Source of the DNA: Candidatus Fokinia solitaria
GTDB taxonomy: Bacteria; Pseudomonadota; Alphaproteobacteria; Rickettsiales; Midichloriaceae
Assembly: GCF_003072485.1 (NCBI RefSeq)
Contig: NZ_CP025989.1
Location: 750,001-782,000 of the forward strand
Direction of reading: 5' to 3'
DNA: 32,000 nucleotides
Both the position numbers and the translations under genes were made by a program. Position 1 is the first letter of the stretch, and every line of letters starts with the position of its first letter. The notes beneath the pieces were generated by a model, which was not told the DNA's origin, ran no database searches, and saw nothing but the letters and a program-made list of their open reading frames with translations. Of the stretch, positions 27,960-32,000 are shown piece after piece.

Positions 27960-28619
27960 ATGTCAAAAATCAGATCGTCTTCGTCATCTCAGTACGAATA
28001 TATCTCAAAGTTTATTCAAAACGTTTCAGAAGATCATTTCGAGGAAATTAGAAACTCAGCGCCTACTGAACTTCAACATATGCAAATTACAGCCGTAGAA
28101 GGCTCTATACTGCGATGGCTAATCGCAACACAGCAACCAACTTTTGCACTAGAAATTGGCACATTCGTTGGATATTCCACCGCATGGTTAGCAGCAGGTA
28201 TGCAACATGGTAGTACTCTGATTTCCGTGGAAAAATCACATGAGAGACTTGCAATCGCTAAGAATAATCTTGAGAAGTACAATTTTAAGTGCGAGGTAAA
28301 GTTATACCTAAACGATGGTAAATCTAAAGAAGAAAGAGATATCAATCTTCAAAAACTTCTAGCAGAGTTTGGAGTTAATTTCGGCTTTGTATTCTGCGAT
28401 GGTGCTAAATCAGAGTATATGCACTGCTTTCAAACTACGTCGAAATACTTGAAAAAAGGCGGACTATTCGTAGCGGATAATGTTACATCATTTCACTCTA
28501 ACACCTCTAATGTTGGAAATGCTATAGATGCTTTCAACTCACATGTTTGTACTAACGACGCATTCGACACAACTATTATTCCAACTTGTGATGGATTGAT
28601 GATTGCTAGAAAAAAATAA
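27960..28619 (+). CDS. Class I SAM-dependent O-methyltransferase, family 3 (caffeoyl-CoA OMT / YrrM-like)
   Basis: SAM motif ALEIGTFVGYSTAWLA, LISVEKS, FVFCDGAKSEY (the FIDADK-equivalent) and GGLFVADNV (metal and catalytic DN). 219 aa. Confidence 0.85.
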   Translation: MSKIRSSSSSQYEYISKFIQNVSEDHFEEIRNSAPTELQHMQITAVEGSILRWLIATQQPTFALEIGTFVGYSTAWLAAGMQHGSTLISVEKSHERLAIAKNNLEKYNFKCEVKLYLNDGKSKEERDINLQKLLAEFGVNFGFVFCDGAKSEYMHCFQTTSKYLKKGGLFVADNVTSFHSNTSNVGNAIDAFNSHVCTNDAFDTTIIPTCDGLMIARKK

Positions 28620-28642: not shown

Positions 28643-28669
28643 GGCAATTAAGAAAATTTTATTTAATAT
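28641..28669 (+). promoter_or_regulatory. Sigma-70-like promoter candidate for the ATPase gene
   Basis: TTGGCA (28641-28646), a 17-nt spacer, then TAATAT (28664-28669), about 65 nt upstream of the ATG at 28736. This is a pattern match only in AT-rich DNA. Confidence 0.3.
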
Positions 28670-28735
28670 GGACACAAATGGAAACATTTCTATACTGAGA
28701 AAGTGCAGCATTTTCCTTCTCATAAATAGCGAAAA

Positions 28736-30838
28736 ATGAGTACTTTCCTCAAAGAACTTAAAATAACAAATTATAAATGCTTCGCGAAAGAGATTTCAAT
28801 CGAGTTTAACGTGCCTAATAATAAAGAAAAAGGCTCCGGACTTACGGTACTTATTGGAAATAACGGCATAGGAAAAACTGCAATACTAGAGGCTATCGAA
28901 TACTTAACATTAAATTACTTCTCCTTGCAGAATAAATTAGATGTCAACGACTTTTCTGATTACAGCAAATCAATTGTGCTTAGAGCTTCTACGAACGAAG
29001 CGAAGGAATACTCAATTGGAATTAGCGCAAGAGACAAGGGCTCTAGAAAAGCATTTACGGCACCATTTATAGTACAGCTAATGTCAGATGAAAAAAAACA
29101 TATGACAAAGGAAGAACAGTTCAACCGAACGGATGAAACTTCGCAATCTGAACTACAAAAAAAAGTGGAAATTTTCTTCTTTAAGCATGATAGAGCGAAA
29201 GAAATATCAAGTACAGGATATAGAACGGCATTTCAGAAAATAACAGATGAACTAAATTGGCGCTTCTTAAGAAATATTAAGCAAAATGGCACTAATGCTG
29301 ACGAACGACATGACAGTACTGCCGACAATGAAGAGACACTTAAAGCTCTAGTAGAAGAATTAAAAGAAACTTTTTCTGGGCATGAAAGGCCTCTAAAAGA
29401 ATTCTTCGAAATATTGGAAAAACGCAAAGAGAATGCCTTTAAAGATGAAAAAGATGAAAAAGGTAAAAAAGGTGAAGAAGATAAAAAAGATGAGAGAGGA
29501 AGGCAATATCAAGCGTACTGTATAAACTTACTGATGATGATAGCATCTGCTGGCGATGATTCGCTACAAAAATGCGTCGCCACTCTCATAAAAAATGATG
29601 GAAGGCAGAGAAAGCTGGCGATAAAAGAAGATCCTGCCGATGATGATTCGCTACAGAAATGCGTCGCCACTCTCACAGGAGATGAGGCGGAAAAAAAGCT
29701 TAAGCTACTGCAGTATGCATTAAAATTTATGAATATTTCGCTATCAGAACGTTACTGCGAGTATGCAGATGAGCTAAAAACGCTACTTTCTGAAGGTAGT
29801 ACTGAAAAGAGCCACATTCAGTTACGCCGCGCATTCGATGAATTGCAGAAGTATTTTCCAAATAATGAAGAAGTCAAAAATATAAATATCTCACCGTTCA
29901 ATCTCTTACAGCCGTTTTCGAATGCATCTATCACATCACGCGCTGAGAAGTCACTATCACAAATAGATATATCAAGCTTAGGATCTGGTATTCAAATGAT
30001 GATTGCGTTGCTTATATTGCGAGAGATTGCAGAAATGTCGCAAAACAACACAGCAAAGAGTACGAAAGAAACAGCACAAACAGAAGAGACAGAACAAACG
30101 CCAGGTCTTATTTACTTAATTGACGAACCAGAACTACATTTACATCCATCAGCACAGAGAAAATTAATGGAATTACTCCTCGAAGAATCAAAGACGAAGC
30201 AGATAATCATCGCAACTCACTCTACAGAGCTAATACATCCGATATTCTGTAAGAAAGAAGAGCCAGAAAAACACCATAACGACACGCCACAAACTGAAGG
30301 TGAAAACAAAAGCGAAAGGCAAAATGCTCCTATAAAACCATACTTCCGCATCTTCAAAAGAGAGTCACAGGAGATAACAGTCACTGCTGATGCAGTAAAG
30401 CTTCTGCTTCCCTTTCCATCACGAGAAGAAATAATTTTCCGCGCATTTGACGTATTTACTACAGATTTTCACAATGAGCTTTACGGCACACTTTATAGTA
30501 AGTTGGAGAAACAATTTTATGACGAGCAGAAGAATAAGAGATTTATTGCAGAGGAATTTGACAAGAAAGTTGCCGAACTTAAAGAGAATCTTAAAGAAGG
30601 AGAGCATATACCATCACCCGCAGAGAAAGAATGGAAAAAGTACAATTCAAAGAAAGGTGAAGTAATAGCAGAAAAAGTAACGATACATACTTACATAAGA
30701 AATTCAATACATCATCCTGAAAATACACTTAATACCCTTTACACAGAAAAAGAATTAAAAGAGTCGATCGAAACACTAATAAAGTTATTAGGAGATTTTC
30801 TCAAGAGAGAATCAAAACACAGAAGATTGAGATATTAG
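28736..30838 (+). CDS. ABC/SMC-like (AAA_15/AAA_21-like) ATPase with a long helical insert and a C-terminal HEPN-like domain; function unknown
   Basis: The N-terminus is LKELKITNYKCF. The ATPase motifs are Walker A GNNGIGKT (aa 41-48), a signature-like LGSGIQ (415-420), Walker B LIYLIDEPE (458-466) and H-loop IIIATHS. About 365 aa of E/K-rich sequence lies between Walker A and the signature. The C-terminal tail contains YIRNSIHHPEN (R655..H660). Confidence 0.8.
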   Translation: MSTFLKELKITNYKCFAKEISIEFNVPNNKEKGSGLTVLIGNNGIGKTAILEAIEYLTLNYFSLQNKLDVNDFSDYSKSIVLRASTNEAKEYSIGISARDKGSRKAFTAPFIVQLMSDEKKHMTKEEQFNRTDETSQSELQKKVEIFFFKHDRAKEISSTGYRTAFQKITDELNWRFLRNIKQNGTNADERHDSTADNEETLKALVEELKETFSGHERPLKEFFEILEKRKENAFKDEKDEKGKKGEEDKKDERGRQYQAYCINLLMMIASAGDDSLQKCVATLIKNDGRQRKLAIKEDPADDDSLQKCVATLTGDEAEKKLKLLQYALKFMNISLSERYCEYADELKTLLSEGSTEKSHIQLRRAFDELQKYFPNNEEVKNINISPFNLLQPFSNASITSRAEKSLSQIDISSLGSGIQMMIALLILREIAEMSQNNTAKSTKETAQTEETEQTPGLIYLIDEPELHLHPSAQRKLMELLLEESKTKQIIIATHSTELIHPIFCKKEEPEKHHNDTPQTEGENKSERQNAPIKPYFRIFKRESQEITVTADAVKLLLPFPSREEIIFRAFDVFTTDFHNELYGTLYSKLEKQFYDEQKNKRFIAEEFDKKVAELKENLKEGEHIPSPAEKEWKKYNSKKGEVIAEKVTIHTYIRNSIHHPENTLNTLYTEKELKESIETLIKLLGDFLKRESKHRRLRY
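29555..29675 (+). repeat. In-frame direct repeat inside the ATPase gene: two 34-bp copies with 1 mismatch, 87-bp period
   Basis: gatgattcgctacaAaaatgcgtcgccactctca (29555-29588) and gatgattcgctacaGaaatgcgtcgccactctca (29642-29675). They encode DDSLQKCVATL twice, 29 aa apart. Confidence 0.9.
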
Positions 30839-30931: not shown

Positions 30932-32000
30932 TCACGCTTCTATCGTGCGAGATAGTCTACTAAGATACTCTCTTAAATACAGTCCAGTAACACTCTCTGG
31001 ATGCTTGCATATATCTTCCGGACGTCCTACACATAGCACTTTACCACCTTTAGGGCCTCCTCCAGGGCCAAAATCTATCACGTAATCAGCCTGTGCCACA
31101 ATACTCATATTATGTTCCACTACAACTACAGTATCGCCTCTATCAACTAATCTGTTAATCGTGGCAATCAACTTTGTAACGTCTTCTGGATGTAATCCTT
31201 TGCTTGGCTCATCCAACAAATATACTGTATGACTTCTAGAGAATTCTTCTCCTCCTTTCTCTAAGCTGAGAGTGGTGATATGTGCTCTTTTAGATAGTTC
31301 TCTAGACAGCTTAACGCGTTGCGCTTCACCACCGGAAAGTGTTGTTGCTGATTGCCCCATCTGCATATATCCTAATCCAACTTCTTGTAGTAAAGATATC
31401 TTTTCTCTTATTGCGGGCACATTTGCGAAAGCTTCCATCGCTTCATCAACAGAAAGTTCTAATATATCTGCTATAGAGTATCCATTCCACTTTATCTGCA
31501 ATGTATCTTGATTGTAGCGTTTTCCTCCACACGCATCACATTGTATATACACATCAGGCAAAAAATACATTTCTACCTTAATCACGCCATCACCTTCGCA
31601 TACCTCGCATCTTCCGCCTTTGATATTAAATGAAAATCTCGCTGCGGTATAACCATTACCGATAGAATCGGGAAGATTCGCGTATAATTCTCTAATTTGT
31701 GTAAACACGTTAATATATGTCGCAGGATTTGAACGTGGCGTTCTACCTATTGGCGACTGATCTATTCTTATTATTTTATCTACATTTTCTACTCCTGTGA
31801 TTTTCTTATATAAACTTGAGTTAGTAAGTACTCCGTTGATTTTATTACTTATTGCTCTATAAAAGAGTTCTACGAAAGTGGACTTACCACTTCCTGAAAC
31901 TCCAGTAATAGCCGTAAGCACTCCACACGGAATATCGATATCGACATCTTTGATGTTGTATGCTGTTGCGCCATAGATAGATAACATATCAGTATTGAGA
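30932..32000 (-). CDS. uvrA: Excinuclease ABC subunit A, C-terminal portion (gene continues beyond the window)
   Basis: GVSGSGKST, zinc finger CEVCEGDG...CDACGGKRY, LSGGEAQRVKL and LYLLDEPSKGLH. The frame stays open upstream of the internal Met at 31987 to the window end. Confidence 0.95.
   Translation of the reverse strand, partial: LNTDMLSIYGATAYNIKDVDIDIPCGVLTAITGVSGSGKSTFVELFYRAISNKINGVLTNSSLYKKITGVENVDKIIRIDQSPIGRTPRSNPATYINVFTQIRELYANLPDSIGNGYTAARFSFNIKGGRCEVCEGDGVIKVEMYFLPDVYIQCDACGGKRYNQDTLQIKWNGYSIADILELSVDEAMEAFANVPAIREKISLLQEVGLGYMQMGQSATTLSGGEAQRVKLSRELSKRAHITTLSLEKGGEEFSRSHTVYLLDEPSKGLHPEDVTKLIATINRLVDRGDTVVVVEHNMSIVAQADYVIDFGPGGGPKGGKVLCVGRPEDICKHPESVTGLYLREYLSRLSRTIEA

What the first reader, a model, noticed from the sequence alone, without database searches (positions are those of the whole stretch)
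28736..30838. Stand-alone ABC/SMC-like ATPase fused to a C-terminal HEPN-like R-x4-H module (PrrC/RloC-like architecture) in an otherwise housekeeping genome segment
Seen in the sequence:
- The ATPase head is complete: Walker A GNNGIGKT, signature-like LGSGIQ, Walker B LIYLIDEPE, and an H-loop ATHS.
- About 365 aa of largely Glu/Lys-rich, helix-prone sequence splits the head between Walker A and the signature motif.
- After a low-complexity linker (aa 505-535) comes a tail of about 165 aa. It ends ...KVTIHTYIRNSIHHPENTLNTLYTEKELKESIETLIKLLGDF, that is R655-N-S-I-H-H660 followed by one more helix.

Established knowledge:
- R-x4-6-H with a polar residue after the Arg, placed at the start of the last helix, is the catalytic signature of HEPN RNases. 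These include Abi proteins, RnlA/LsoA, Csm6/Csx1/Cas13 and the KEN domains of Ire1/RNase L.
- An ABC ATPase followed by a C-terminal HEPN nuclease is the architecture of the anticodon nucleases PrrC and RloC. RloC also has a Rad50-like coiled-coil insert in the ATPase head.

Inference:
- This could be a nucleotide-regulated RNase of a divergent or undescribed subfamily, acting in abortive infection, stress response or as a tRNA nuclease.
- It is notable because every other gene in the window is core metabolism.
- The gene appears to have its own promoter.
- No restriction-modification, Toprim or antitoxin partner is adjacent.
Basis: partly seen in the sequence, partly recalled or inferred. Interest (0 to 1): 0.75.

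Follow-up and report, generated by a model that had tools for sequence, protein, structure and literature searches.

The report
Orphan OLD-type ATPase with nuclease-like tail
This gene of a Paramecium endosymbiont is a very divergent, stand-alone copy of a widespread, unnamed bacterial defence-type protein: an ATP-driven sensor fused to a small domain carrying an RNase-like motif. In other bacteria that protein often sits inside restriction-modification operons, as the tRNA-cutting suicide enzyme PrrC does.

Summary

- **Head:** an OLD/Gabija/Septu-type ABC ATPase (Pfam AAA_15).
- **Tail:** a confidently folding ~125-aa core with no Pfam, NCBIfam or PADLOC family.
- **Family:** the tail defines a large family (1,105 clusters at 50% identity) of ~490-aa proteins. 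H579, E581, R655, H659/H660 and N663 are almost universal in it. The motif is R-[N/H/D]-x-x-H-H, the same spacing as in the IRE1 RNase.
- **Context of relatives:** about a third of 66 relatives lie inside type I restriction-modification operons (M-S-X-R or M-X-S-R). Others lie beside other R-M or defence genes, or alone.
- **The Fokinia copy:** it has no R-M partner and shares its position with F. crypta (pheT, O-methyltransferase, gene, uvrA). It carries ~224 residues of lineage-specific insertions. It keeps only 96 of 140 family-conserved positions but all catalytic-looking ones.
- **HEPN fold:** neither proven nor excluded. Motif, helix placement and one PADLOC hit (CARF-HEPN Csx20, 4.5e-5) favour it. 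Foldseek found no solved HEPN structure.
- **Membership:** it is not a PrrC/RloC family member.

Most likely it is an ATP-regulated RNase of abortive-infection type.

The parts
28669..28696 (+). Sigma-70-like site TGGACA-16-TATACT in the 116-nt gap after the O-methyltransferase gene, about 40 nt before the ATG
   Evidence: Site density in the region is not above shuffled sequence, so this is only a candidate promoter.
28736..30838 (+). Whole ORF, 700 codons plus stop
28736..29290 (+). ABC ATPase N-terminal lobe (aa 1-185), including Walker A GNNGIGKT (aa 41-48, nt 28856-28879)
   Evidence: Pfam AAA_15 at 7e-29. pLDDT above 90 for aa 1-100. K47 (at least 90% conserved) and T48 (invariant) are both kept here.
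29291..29827 (+). Fokinia-specific expansion of the ATPase insert region (aa 186-364). It is absent from at least 90% of homologues and is modelled with low confidence.
29547..29685 (+). Internal duplication: two 52-nt copies, 85% identical, 87 nt apart, encoding DDSLQKCVATL twice
29978..29995 (+). ABC signature-like LGSGIQ (aa 415-420). The family consensus is LGSG[IV]E.
30107..30133 (+). Walker B / D-loop LIYLIDEPE (aa 458-466). D463 and E464 are invariant.
30212..30223 (+). H-loop ATHS (aa 493-496). H495 is at least 90% conserved and S496 invariant.
30251..30340 (+). Fokinia-specific low-complexity linker (aa 506-535)
30401..30835 (+). C-terminal tail (aa 556-700). The conserved core is aa 556-692, about 125 aa in compact homologues. 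Order of elements: short helix, long helix, helix, beta-hairpin, short helix, loop, long helix.
   Evidence: AF2 model with pLDDT 90.9 and pTM 0.85. The tail profile finds 1,105 clusters.
30467..30487 (+). FHNELYG (aa 578-584) at the start of the first long helix. H579, E581 and G584 are invariant.
30698..30724 (+). RNSIHHPEN (aa 655-663): R-phi-x-x-x-H-type motif at the end of the short helix and the start of the loop before the last helix
   Evidence: Human IRE1 carries RNKKHH with the same spacing.

Best explanation
**What it is.** The gene encodes a fast-evolving orphan member of a widespread, uncharacterised family of single-chain defence-type proteins.

**Anatomy.** The N-terminal about 350 core residues are an OLD-type (AAA_15) ABC ATPase head. 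The Toprim nuclease of OLD and GajA is replaced by a ~125-aa alpha+beta domain. That domain has invariant H-x-E on its first long helix and R-[N/H/D]-x-x-H-H-P-E-N at the end of a short helix.

**Proposed mechanism (inferred).** The ATPase is the sensor and switch. Nucleotide-dependent engagement of two heads brings two tails together. The tails then form a HEPN-like, metal-independent RNase site that cuts tRNA or other RNA and stops translation. In relatives embedded in type I R-M operons, the protein would act as a PrrC-like back-up that fires when restriction is disabled.

**The Fokinia copy.** It was acquired before F. solitaria and F. crypta split. It lost any R-M partner and accumulated loop insertions. 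It is still held open and keeps its catalytic-looking residues. It is therefore probably still active, in a role that need not be phage defence.

**Shown:** the anatomy, the conservation and the genomic contexts. **Inferred:** RNase chemistry, dimer activation, the trigger and the substrate.
For: **Head**
- Pfam AAA_15 at 7e-29.
- PADLOC AriA, Old, PtuA and GajA models match the head only.
- Foldseek on the full model returns PtuA, Rad50, SMC, AriA and GajA heads.
- A plasmid member scores 1.3e-50 on the PADLOC Old model, over its ATPase part only.

**Tail**
- Confident independent fold.
- 1,105 clusters in the library, always at the C-terminus of proteins of about 450-520 aa.
- R, HH, H-x-E and N are near-universal. 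The phi position is N 101, H 29, D 2, S 2. From established knowledge, N, H and D are the residues usual at that position in HEPN RNases.
- In the model the motif lies at the end of a helix and the start of the loop before the last helix. A conserved acidic residue sits on an upstream helix. This is how HEPN is described in PMC3710099.
- IRE1 has R-N-K-K-H-H.
- The tail of P0044 matches CARF_HEPN_CSX20 at 4.5e-5 over aa 21-124 against 105 profile positions.

**Context**
- P0096 lies in hsdM-hsdS-X-hsdR in 5 of 5 contigs.
- About 21 of 66 genome loci are embedded in type I R-M, with overlapping stop and start codons.
- Other neighbours include AlwI, Eco57I-like, N6_N4 and C5 methylases, GmrSD, Cas, Fic and RhuM.
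- A copy stands alone between two IS elements on a conjugative plasmid.

**Retention in Fokinia**
- Intact 700- and 769-codon ORFs in the same position in two species.
Against: - Foldseek with the pLDDT-91 tail model finds no HEPN or any other structure in the PDB (best E about 1, TM about 0.2) or in BFVD.
- No Pfam HEPN-clan model reaches significance. One tail scores 0.03 on HEPN_Apea.
- A profile search of PDB sequences finds nothing.
- Only 1 of 47 tails hits a HEPN model in PADLOC.
- hhalign against E. coli RnlA aligns only the motif, at 0.1% probability.
- Two of the putative core helices are short (9-10 residues), unlike a classical four-helix bundle.
- Three His, two Glu and one Asn among the conserved residues would also suit a metal site.
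- The Fokinia proteins have lost 44 and 51 of 140 family-conserved positions. The losses include the WSPSWGEIN motif, the Walker A Glu and the signature Glu.
- No biochemical data exist.
Confidence: 0.5

Rival explanations
1. The tail is a nuclease or hydrolase, but not HEPN. It would be a metal-dependent DNase or phosphodiesterase that replaces the Toprim domain of OLD/GajA and cuts DNA.
For: - The closest ATPase relatives pair with DNases: Toprim in OLD, GajA and AriB, and HNH in PtuB.
- The conserved set H579, E581, H659, H660, E662 and N663 looks like a metal-ligand set.
- A beta-hairpin directly precedes the motif helix.
- No HEPN structure was retrieved.
Against: - The hairpin itself carries almost no conserved residues, unlike His-Me/HNH fingers.
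- R-[N/H/D]-x-x-x-H with exactly those phi residues is the HEPN signature.
- There is one whole-domain hit to a CARF-HEPN model.
- No HNH, Toprim or PD-(D/E)XK model hits the tail.
Confidence: 0.2
2. The tail is not catalytic. It would be a docking or sensing module, for example binding Hsd subunits, DNA ends or a nucleotide. The protein would then modulate restriction or signal to another effector.
For: - Tight translational coupling with hsdS and hsdR in many loci.
- No match to any catalytic fold.
- In some HEPN-like domains the conserved R/H residues bind ligand rather than catalyse (PMC3710099 abstract, seen).
Against: - Many members stand alone, with no R-M genes or any recurrent partner. 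Examples are the Fokinia genes, a plasmid copy between IS elements, and copies next to aconitase, PEP carboxylase or AcrB.
- Invariance of R, H, H, E and N across more than 1,000 clusters is typical of an active site.
Confidence: 0.15
3. In Fokinia specifically the gene is a decaying relic without function, whatever the family does elsewhere.
For: - It keeps only 96 of 140 conserved positions, against at least 116 in every other member.
- About 224 inserted residues, with repeats.
- No partner genes nearby.
Against: - 700- and 769-codon ORFs stay open in a 36% GC genome in two species at only 40% identity to each other.
- Many substitutions are shared by both species, so they are old and have been retained.
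- Walker A K/T, Walker B D-E, the H-loop His and all tail invariants are kept in both.
Confidence: 0.1
4. It is a DNA-repair ATPase (RecF/RecN/SbcC-like) working with the adjacent uvrA.
For: - Convergent neighbour uvrA.
- Weak SMC_N and RecF hits.
- Rad50 and SMC heads appear among the structural neighbours.
Against: - RecF TIGR00611 scores 33 bits against a cutoff of 172, and SMC_N 25 bits against 40.
- The family's contexts are R-M and defence, not repair.
- uvrA adjacency is specific to Fokinia.
Confidence: 0.04

Closest known systems
PrrC anticodon nuclease (E. coli prr locus)
   Same: - A single polypeptide of ABC ATPase followed by a small C-terminal effector domain with conserved Arg and His.
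- Relatives occupy the same slot inside type I R-M operons, between hsdS or hsdM and hsdR.
- Fic and RhuM genes occur nearby, as reported for PrrC/RloC.
   Different: - A different ATPase clade: AAA_15/OLD-like, with no AAA_13 hit.
- A different motif: R-x3-H-H plus an upstream H-x-E, against R-x3-E-x36-52-H.
- The window gene itself has no R-M neighbours.
RloC
   Same: - ABC ATPase plus a C-terminal nuclease-type domain.
- Mostly not linked to R-M.
- An insert splits the ATPase head.
   Different: - No CxxC zinc hook and no long antiparallel coiled coil.
- The Fokinia insert is lineage-specific and of low confidence.
- The catalytic triad differs.
OLD family nucleases, Gabija GajA and PARIS AriA
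   Same: The closest ATPase heads by sequence and structure. UniRef even labels the protein 'Endonuclease GajA'.
   Different: - No Toprim domain and no AriB or GajB partner.
- All PADLOC hits stop at the end of the ATPase.
- The GajA label is therefore a misannotation.
HEPN RNases with an R-N-x-x-H-H motif (IRE1/RNase L KEN domain) and CARF-HEPN Csx20
   Same: - Identical motif spacing.
- One tail matches the Csx20 model over the whole domain.
- The motif position relative to the helices fits the HEPN description.
   Different: - No significant Pfam or Foldseek link.
- The helices flanking the motif are short, and a beta-hairpin precedes it.
ERFG_01251-type ABC-HEPN proteins (Anantharaman et al. 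2013)
   Same: An ABC ATPase fused to a HEPN domain, found sporadically in defence contexts.
   Different: Those proteins carry an N-terminal HEPN/Toprim-NTD1 domain of about 240 aa and a classical MNT-type HEPN domain. Neither is seen here. No direct comparison was possible because no sequences were at hand.

Membership tests
ABC ATPase, OLD/AAA_15 clade | Walker A, signature, Walker B/D-loop and H-loop in ABC order, with a significant AAA_15 match | tested here: met
   AAA_15 at 7.1e-29, 102 bits against a cutoff of 32. Motif positions confirmed. Structural neighbours are PtuA, Rad50, SMC, AriA and GajA heads.
OLD / GajA nucleases | C-terminal Toprim nuclease domain | tested here: not met
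   No Toprim family hits the tail. Old and GajA profiles align only up to the end of the ATPase.
Gabija system | Adjacent GajB (UvrD-like helicase) | tested here: not met
   The window neighbours are an O-methyltransferase and uvrA. A UvrD-type gene follows the family member in only one of 66 loci, L017.
PrrC/RloC anticodon nucleases | PrrC-type ABC ATPase (Pfam AAA_13) | tested here: not met
   AAA_13 is not among the Pfam hits at E up to 1.
PrrC/RloC anticodon nucleases | Catalytic triad Arg-x3-Glu-x36-52-His | tested here: not met
   The triad definition comes from PMC2610378. Here the motif is R655-x3-H659-H660. Compact members end about 30-35 residues after the Arg, with no conserved downstream His.
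PrrC/RloC anticodon nucleases | Embedding in a type I R-M operon (PrrC) | tested here: not met
   Not met for the window gene. Met for about 21 of 66 relatives.
RloC | Rad50-like coiled coil with a CxxC zinc hook in the ATPase insert | tested here: not met
   The insert contains no CxxC (sequence). It is absent from at least 90% of homologues.
HEPN superfamily | Conserved R-x4-6-H motif (R-phi-x-x-x-H, phi = N, H or D) | tested here: met
   R invariant and H660 at least 90% conserved in 113 sequences. The motif is in 134 of 145 representatives, with phi N 101, H 29, D 2, S 2.
HEPN superfamily | [quoted passage not shown] | tested here: inconclusive
   The secondary-structure order of the model fits: helix 650-659, loop, helix 671-699, and invariant E581 on helix 576-597. 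The description is from PMC3710099.
HEPN superfamily | Four-helix up-down bundle similar to solved HEPN structures | tested here: inconclusive
HEPN superfamily | Significant profile match to a curated HEPN family | tested here: inconclusive
   Pfam gives none; HEPN_Apea scores 0.03 for one tail. PADLOC CARF_HEPN_CSX20 scores 4.5e-5 for 1 of 47 tails, over the whole domain.
RecF/RecN/SbcC repair ATPases | End-to-end match above the curated cutoff | tested here: not met
   RecF scores 33 bits against 172, over the N-terminus only. SMC_N scores 25 bits against 40.

The most novel reading that the evidence does not exclude
The family is an undescribed, very widespread second invention of the PrrC strategy. 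An OLD-type ABC ATPase is fused to a new, strongly diverged HEPN-like RNase domain. It guards type I and other R-M systems, and it also works as a mobile single-gene abortive-infection module. An obligate Paramecium endosymbiont with an 837-kb genome has kept an orphan copy since before two of its species split, which would suggest a domesticated role such as stress-triggered control of tRNA or translation.
Probability: 0.35. Interest if true: 0.75.

Novelty: new variant of a known kind. Interest (0 to 1): 0.6.

Why it matters
**For the field**
- ABC-ATPase-plus-effector proteins are among the most abundant anti-phage modules. In the literature read here, the HEPN-coupled ones named are PrrC, RloC and the ERFG_01251 group.
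- A separate, larger family with an OLD-type head, a new effector domain and the same embedding in R-M operons would show that the guard-the-restriction-system logic arose more than once.
- It would also give a compact ~490-aa single-gene system to test.

**For annotation**
- The labels 'Endonuclease GajA' and 'OLD family endonuclease' on these proteins are wrong about the nuclease domain.

**For endosymbiont biology**
- A potentially suicidal nuclease kept in the smallest Rickettsiales genome reported as of January 2018 is unexpected and asks for an explanation.

Tried and rejected
**Searches with the tail that found nothing**
- Foldseek against the PDB and BFVD: nothing significant.
- Tail profile against PDB sequences: only chance hits to antibody and gp41 chains.
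- Pfam scan of 47 tails at E up to 10: no recurrent family.
- The PADLOC PD-Lambda-5_A hit of the Fokinia tail (5e-4) was seen in 1 of 47 members only. I treated it as unreliable.
- hhalign against E. coli RnlA: motif-only alignment at 0.1% probability.

**Labels and readings rejected**
- The GajA and OLD labels were rejected for lack of a Toprim domain.
- The repair-ATPase reading was rejected on scores and context.

**Leads that went nowhere**
- The T4 Rnl2-like RNA ligase near one homologue was looked for in all loci and not found again.
- The ABC ATPase classification paper (Krishnan et al. 2020) could not be read.
- A search for the Campylobacter rlo gene names gave nothing usable.
- Phage genomes hold almost no copies: one weak hit in an 8-kb fragment.
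Full report
**1. The observation**

The window carries an ATG-initiated ORF at 28736-30838 (+) of 700 codons. Its product is identical to a protein of Candidatus Fokinia solitaria that NCBI annotates as hypothetical and UniRef labels 'Endonuclease GajA'. F. solitaria is an obligate endosymbiont of Paramecium. [quoted passage not shown]

- Walker A GNNGIGKT 41-48
- LGSGIQ 415-420
- LIYLIDEPE 458-466
- ATHS 493-496
- RNSIHH 655-660

GC content is the same as in the rest of the window.

The neighbours are pheT and a family-3 O-methyltransferase upstream on the same strand, and uvrA convergent downstream. The 116-nt upstream gap holds one sigma-70-like site (28669-28696). The region has no more such sites than shuffled sequence, so an own promoter is possible but not shown.

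**2. The head**

- Pfam AAA_15 matches residues 5-500 at 7e-29.
- In PADLOC the best hits are AriA, Old, PtuA, NsnB and GajA. All are confined to the ATPase.
- By sequence, the nearest solved structures are retron/Septu PtuA, OLD, GajA and AriA.
- A full-length AlphaFold model has mean pLDDT 72.9: above 90 for the two ATPase lobes and the tail, below 50 for most of 150-400.
- With Foldseek that model retrieves PtuA, Rad50, SMC, AriA and GajA heads.
- RecF and SMC_N score far below their cutoffs.

The head is therefore a complete ABC ATPase of the OLD/Gabija/Septu kind, not a repair ATPase.

**3. A family, and what is specific to Fokinia**

The closest relative is the F. crypta orthologue (769 aa, 40% identity over 54% of the query). 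It lies in the same position: pheT, O-methyltransferase, gene, uvrA. All other relatives are proteins of about 480-520 aa from many phyla. They include Patescibacteria/Saccharibacteria, Actinomycetota, Bacteroidota, Gammaproteobacteria and Campylobacter.

Alignment shows that the Fokinia protein is the ~476-aa core plus about 224 inserted residues. The insertions are at 186-205, 215-232, 245-364, 438-456, 506-535, 621-628 and 693-700. The large insert contains a 52-nt duplication (29547 and 29634) and a 9-nt repeat. It has no CxxC. Its E+K content is no higher than that of the whole protein. It is not a Rad50/RloC-type coiled coil.

Of 140 columns that are at least 90% conserved in the other 111 members, F. 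solitaria keeps 96 and F. crypta 89. Every other member keeps at least 116, with a median of 138. The losses include the Walker A Glu, the signature Glu and the WSPSWGEIN motif of the tail. Many substitutions are shared by the two species. Both species keep Walker A K/T, Walker B D-E, the H-loop His and every tail invariant.

Together with two long open ORFs in a 36% GC genome, this indicates accelerated but continuing selection rather than decay.

**4. The tail**

Modelled alone with 47 homologous tails, residues 546-700 fold with pLDDT 90.9 and pTM 0.85. The order of elements is:
- a short helix
- a long helix that starts with FHNELYG
- a helix
- a beta-hairpin
- a short helix that ends in R655...H660
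- a loop (PEN...)
- a long C-terminal helix

In 113 aligned sequences the invariant tail residues are H579, E581, G584, R655, H659, N663 and S677. H660, P661 and E662 are at least 90% conserved. A profile of the tail finds 1,105 clusters (50% identity) at E up to 1e-3 among 1.84 billion proteins. Every full-length protein among the best 150 carries it at the C-terminus; about a third of those 150 are short fragments. Among those diverse representatives, the residue after the Arg is N in 101, H in 29, D in 2 and S in 2. The residue before the last His is H in 131 of 134.

Evidence for a HEPN RNase domain:
- The motif R-[N/H/D]-x-x-x-H is the HEPN signature (established knowledge).
- The R-N-x-x-H-H variant occurs in human IRE1 as MRNKKHHYRE (checked).
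- The motif's place at the end of a helix and the start of the loop before the last helix fits the HEPN description in PMC3710099. So do the conserved acidic residue on an upstream helix and the insert between.
- One tail (P0044) matches the PADLOC CARF_HEPN_CSX20 model at 4.5e-5, over residues 21-124 against 105 profile positions.

Evidence against:
- Foldseek finds nothing in the PDB (best E about 1) or in BFVD.
- No Pfam HEPN model is significant.
- The tail profile finds no PDB sequence.
- hhalign against RnlA aligns only the motif.
- Two would-be core helices are very short.

I therefore rate HEPN membership as likely but unproven. A distinct, possibly metal-dependent, nuclease fold remains a serious alternative.

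**5. Genomic context of relatives**

P0096 lies in the order hsdM-hsdS-X-hsdR in five of five contigs. It starts 13 nt after hsdS and overlaps hsdR. From my own knowledge, this is the slot prrC occupies in the E. coli prr locus. PMC3710099 confirms that prrC is embedded in an hsdMSR system.

I examined 66 genome loci with a full-length gene:
- About 21 are embedded in type I systems as M-S-X-R or M-X-S-R, often with 4-nt overlaps.
- Pfam scans of the two nearest neighbours on each side are dominated by N6_Mtase, HsdM_N, Methylase_S and the HsdR domains. Other methylases follow (N6_N4, Eco57I, D12, C5, EcoRI), then AlwI, GmrSD, HNH, Cas proteins, BrxC, Abi_C, Fic and RhuM.
- Some copies sit next to plain housekeeping genes such as aconitase, PEP carboxylase and AcrB.

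A 487-aa member also sits alone between two ISNCY transposases on a conjugative Klebsiella plasmid, beside a TIR gene.

There is no recurrent partner gene. The protein is evidently a self-contained module that is often, but not always, nested in R-M systems.

**6. Comparison with known systems**

- **PrrC/RloC.** The protein works like them in architecture and, for relatives, in location. It is not a member. There is no AAA_13 match. The triad R-x3-E-x36-52-H is absent, and there is no zinc hook.
- **OLD/GajA.** It shares their head but has no Toprim domain and no GajB or AriB partner.
- **Curated models.** No PADLOC v2 model covers the tail, and neither the Pfam nor the NCBIfam scan found a family for it.
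- **Literature.** The 2024-2026 papers I read list TOPRIM, HNH, NERD, PIN and, for PrrC and RloC only, HEPN as effectors of defence ABC ATPases. The 2013 HEPN census adds ERFG_01251, which has a different architecture.
- **Limit.** I could not read the ABC ATPase classification of Krishnan et al. 2020. A prior mention of this family there cannot be excluded.

**7. Verdict**

Its specific filing as PrrC/RloC-like holds for logic and context but not for homology.

The most likely mechanism is an ATP-gated, HEPN-like RNase of abortive-infection type (confidence about 0.5). The main alternatives are a non-HEPN nuclease (0.2), a non-catalytic tail (0.15) and, for the Fokinia copy only, loss of function (0.1).

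Novelty: a new variant of a known kind. Interest: 0.6.

Noticed in passing
L001:11142-12155: A T4 Rnl2-like RNA ligase gene (PF09414 + PF18043) lies about 0.4 kb downstream of hsdR in one hsdM-hsdS-X-hsdR locus. RNA ligases are the classic counter to anticodon nucleases. It was not found near any other family member.
   Followed up: partly
L017:8852-13713: In a Saccharimonadales genome the family member is followed directly by a 1116-aa UvrD helicase fused to a PD-(D/E)XK nuclease. This pairing resembles Gabija GajA-GajB.
   Followed up: partly
L088:4394-9064: On a conjugative IncFIB Klebsiella quasipneumoniae plasmid, a 487-aa member sits alone between two ISNCY transposase genes and near a TIR-domain gene. 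This suggests movement as a single-gene cassette.
   Followed up: partly
window 27960-28619: The upstream gene is a 219-aa family-3 O-methyltransferase (Methyltransf_3, 1.4e-20). It is syntenic in F. crypta. Its substrate is unknown, and its adjacency to pheT and to a putative RNA nuclease may be coincidental.
   Followed up: no
window 29441-29493 and 29547-29685: The lineage-specific insert of the ATPase contains a 9-nt repeat (AAAGATGAA, about 6 copies) and a 52-nt duplication spaced 87 nt apart. F. crypta has different repeats at the same place, so this loop is an insertion hot spot.
   Followed up: partly
window 30416-30439 (aa 561-568): Both Fokinia proteins have lost the near-invariant WSPSWGEIN motif of the tail (FPSREEII and YPLSRGAIA). 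They keep H-x-E and R-x3-HH. The role of the lost motif is unknown.
   Followed up: partly
L007:8888-10339: The best tail match in genomes is in an alphaproteobacterial MAG (525-kb contig). There the gene is flanked by a glutamine amidotransferase and an Exo_endo_phos gene. This is another non-R-M, possibly host-associated, context.
   Followed up: no
window 30932-31987: The convergent downstream ORF is the C-terminal part of uvrA. The ORF listing starts it at an internal ATG because the gene runs off the window end.
   Followed up: no
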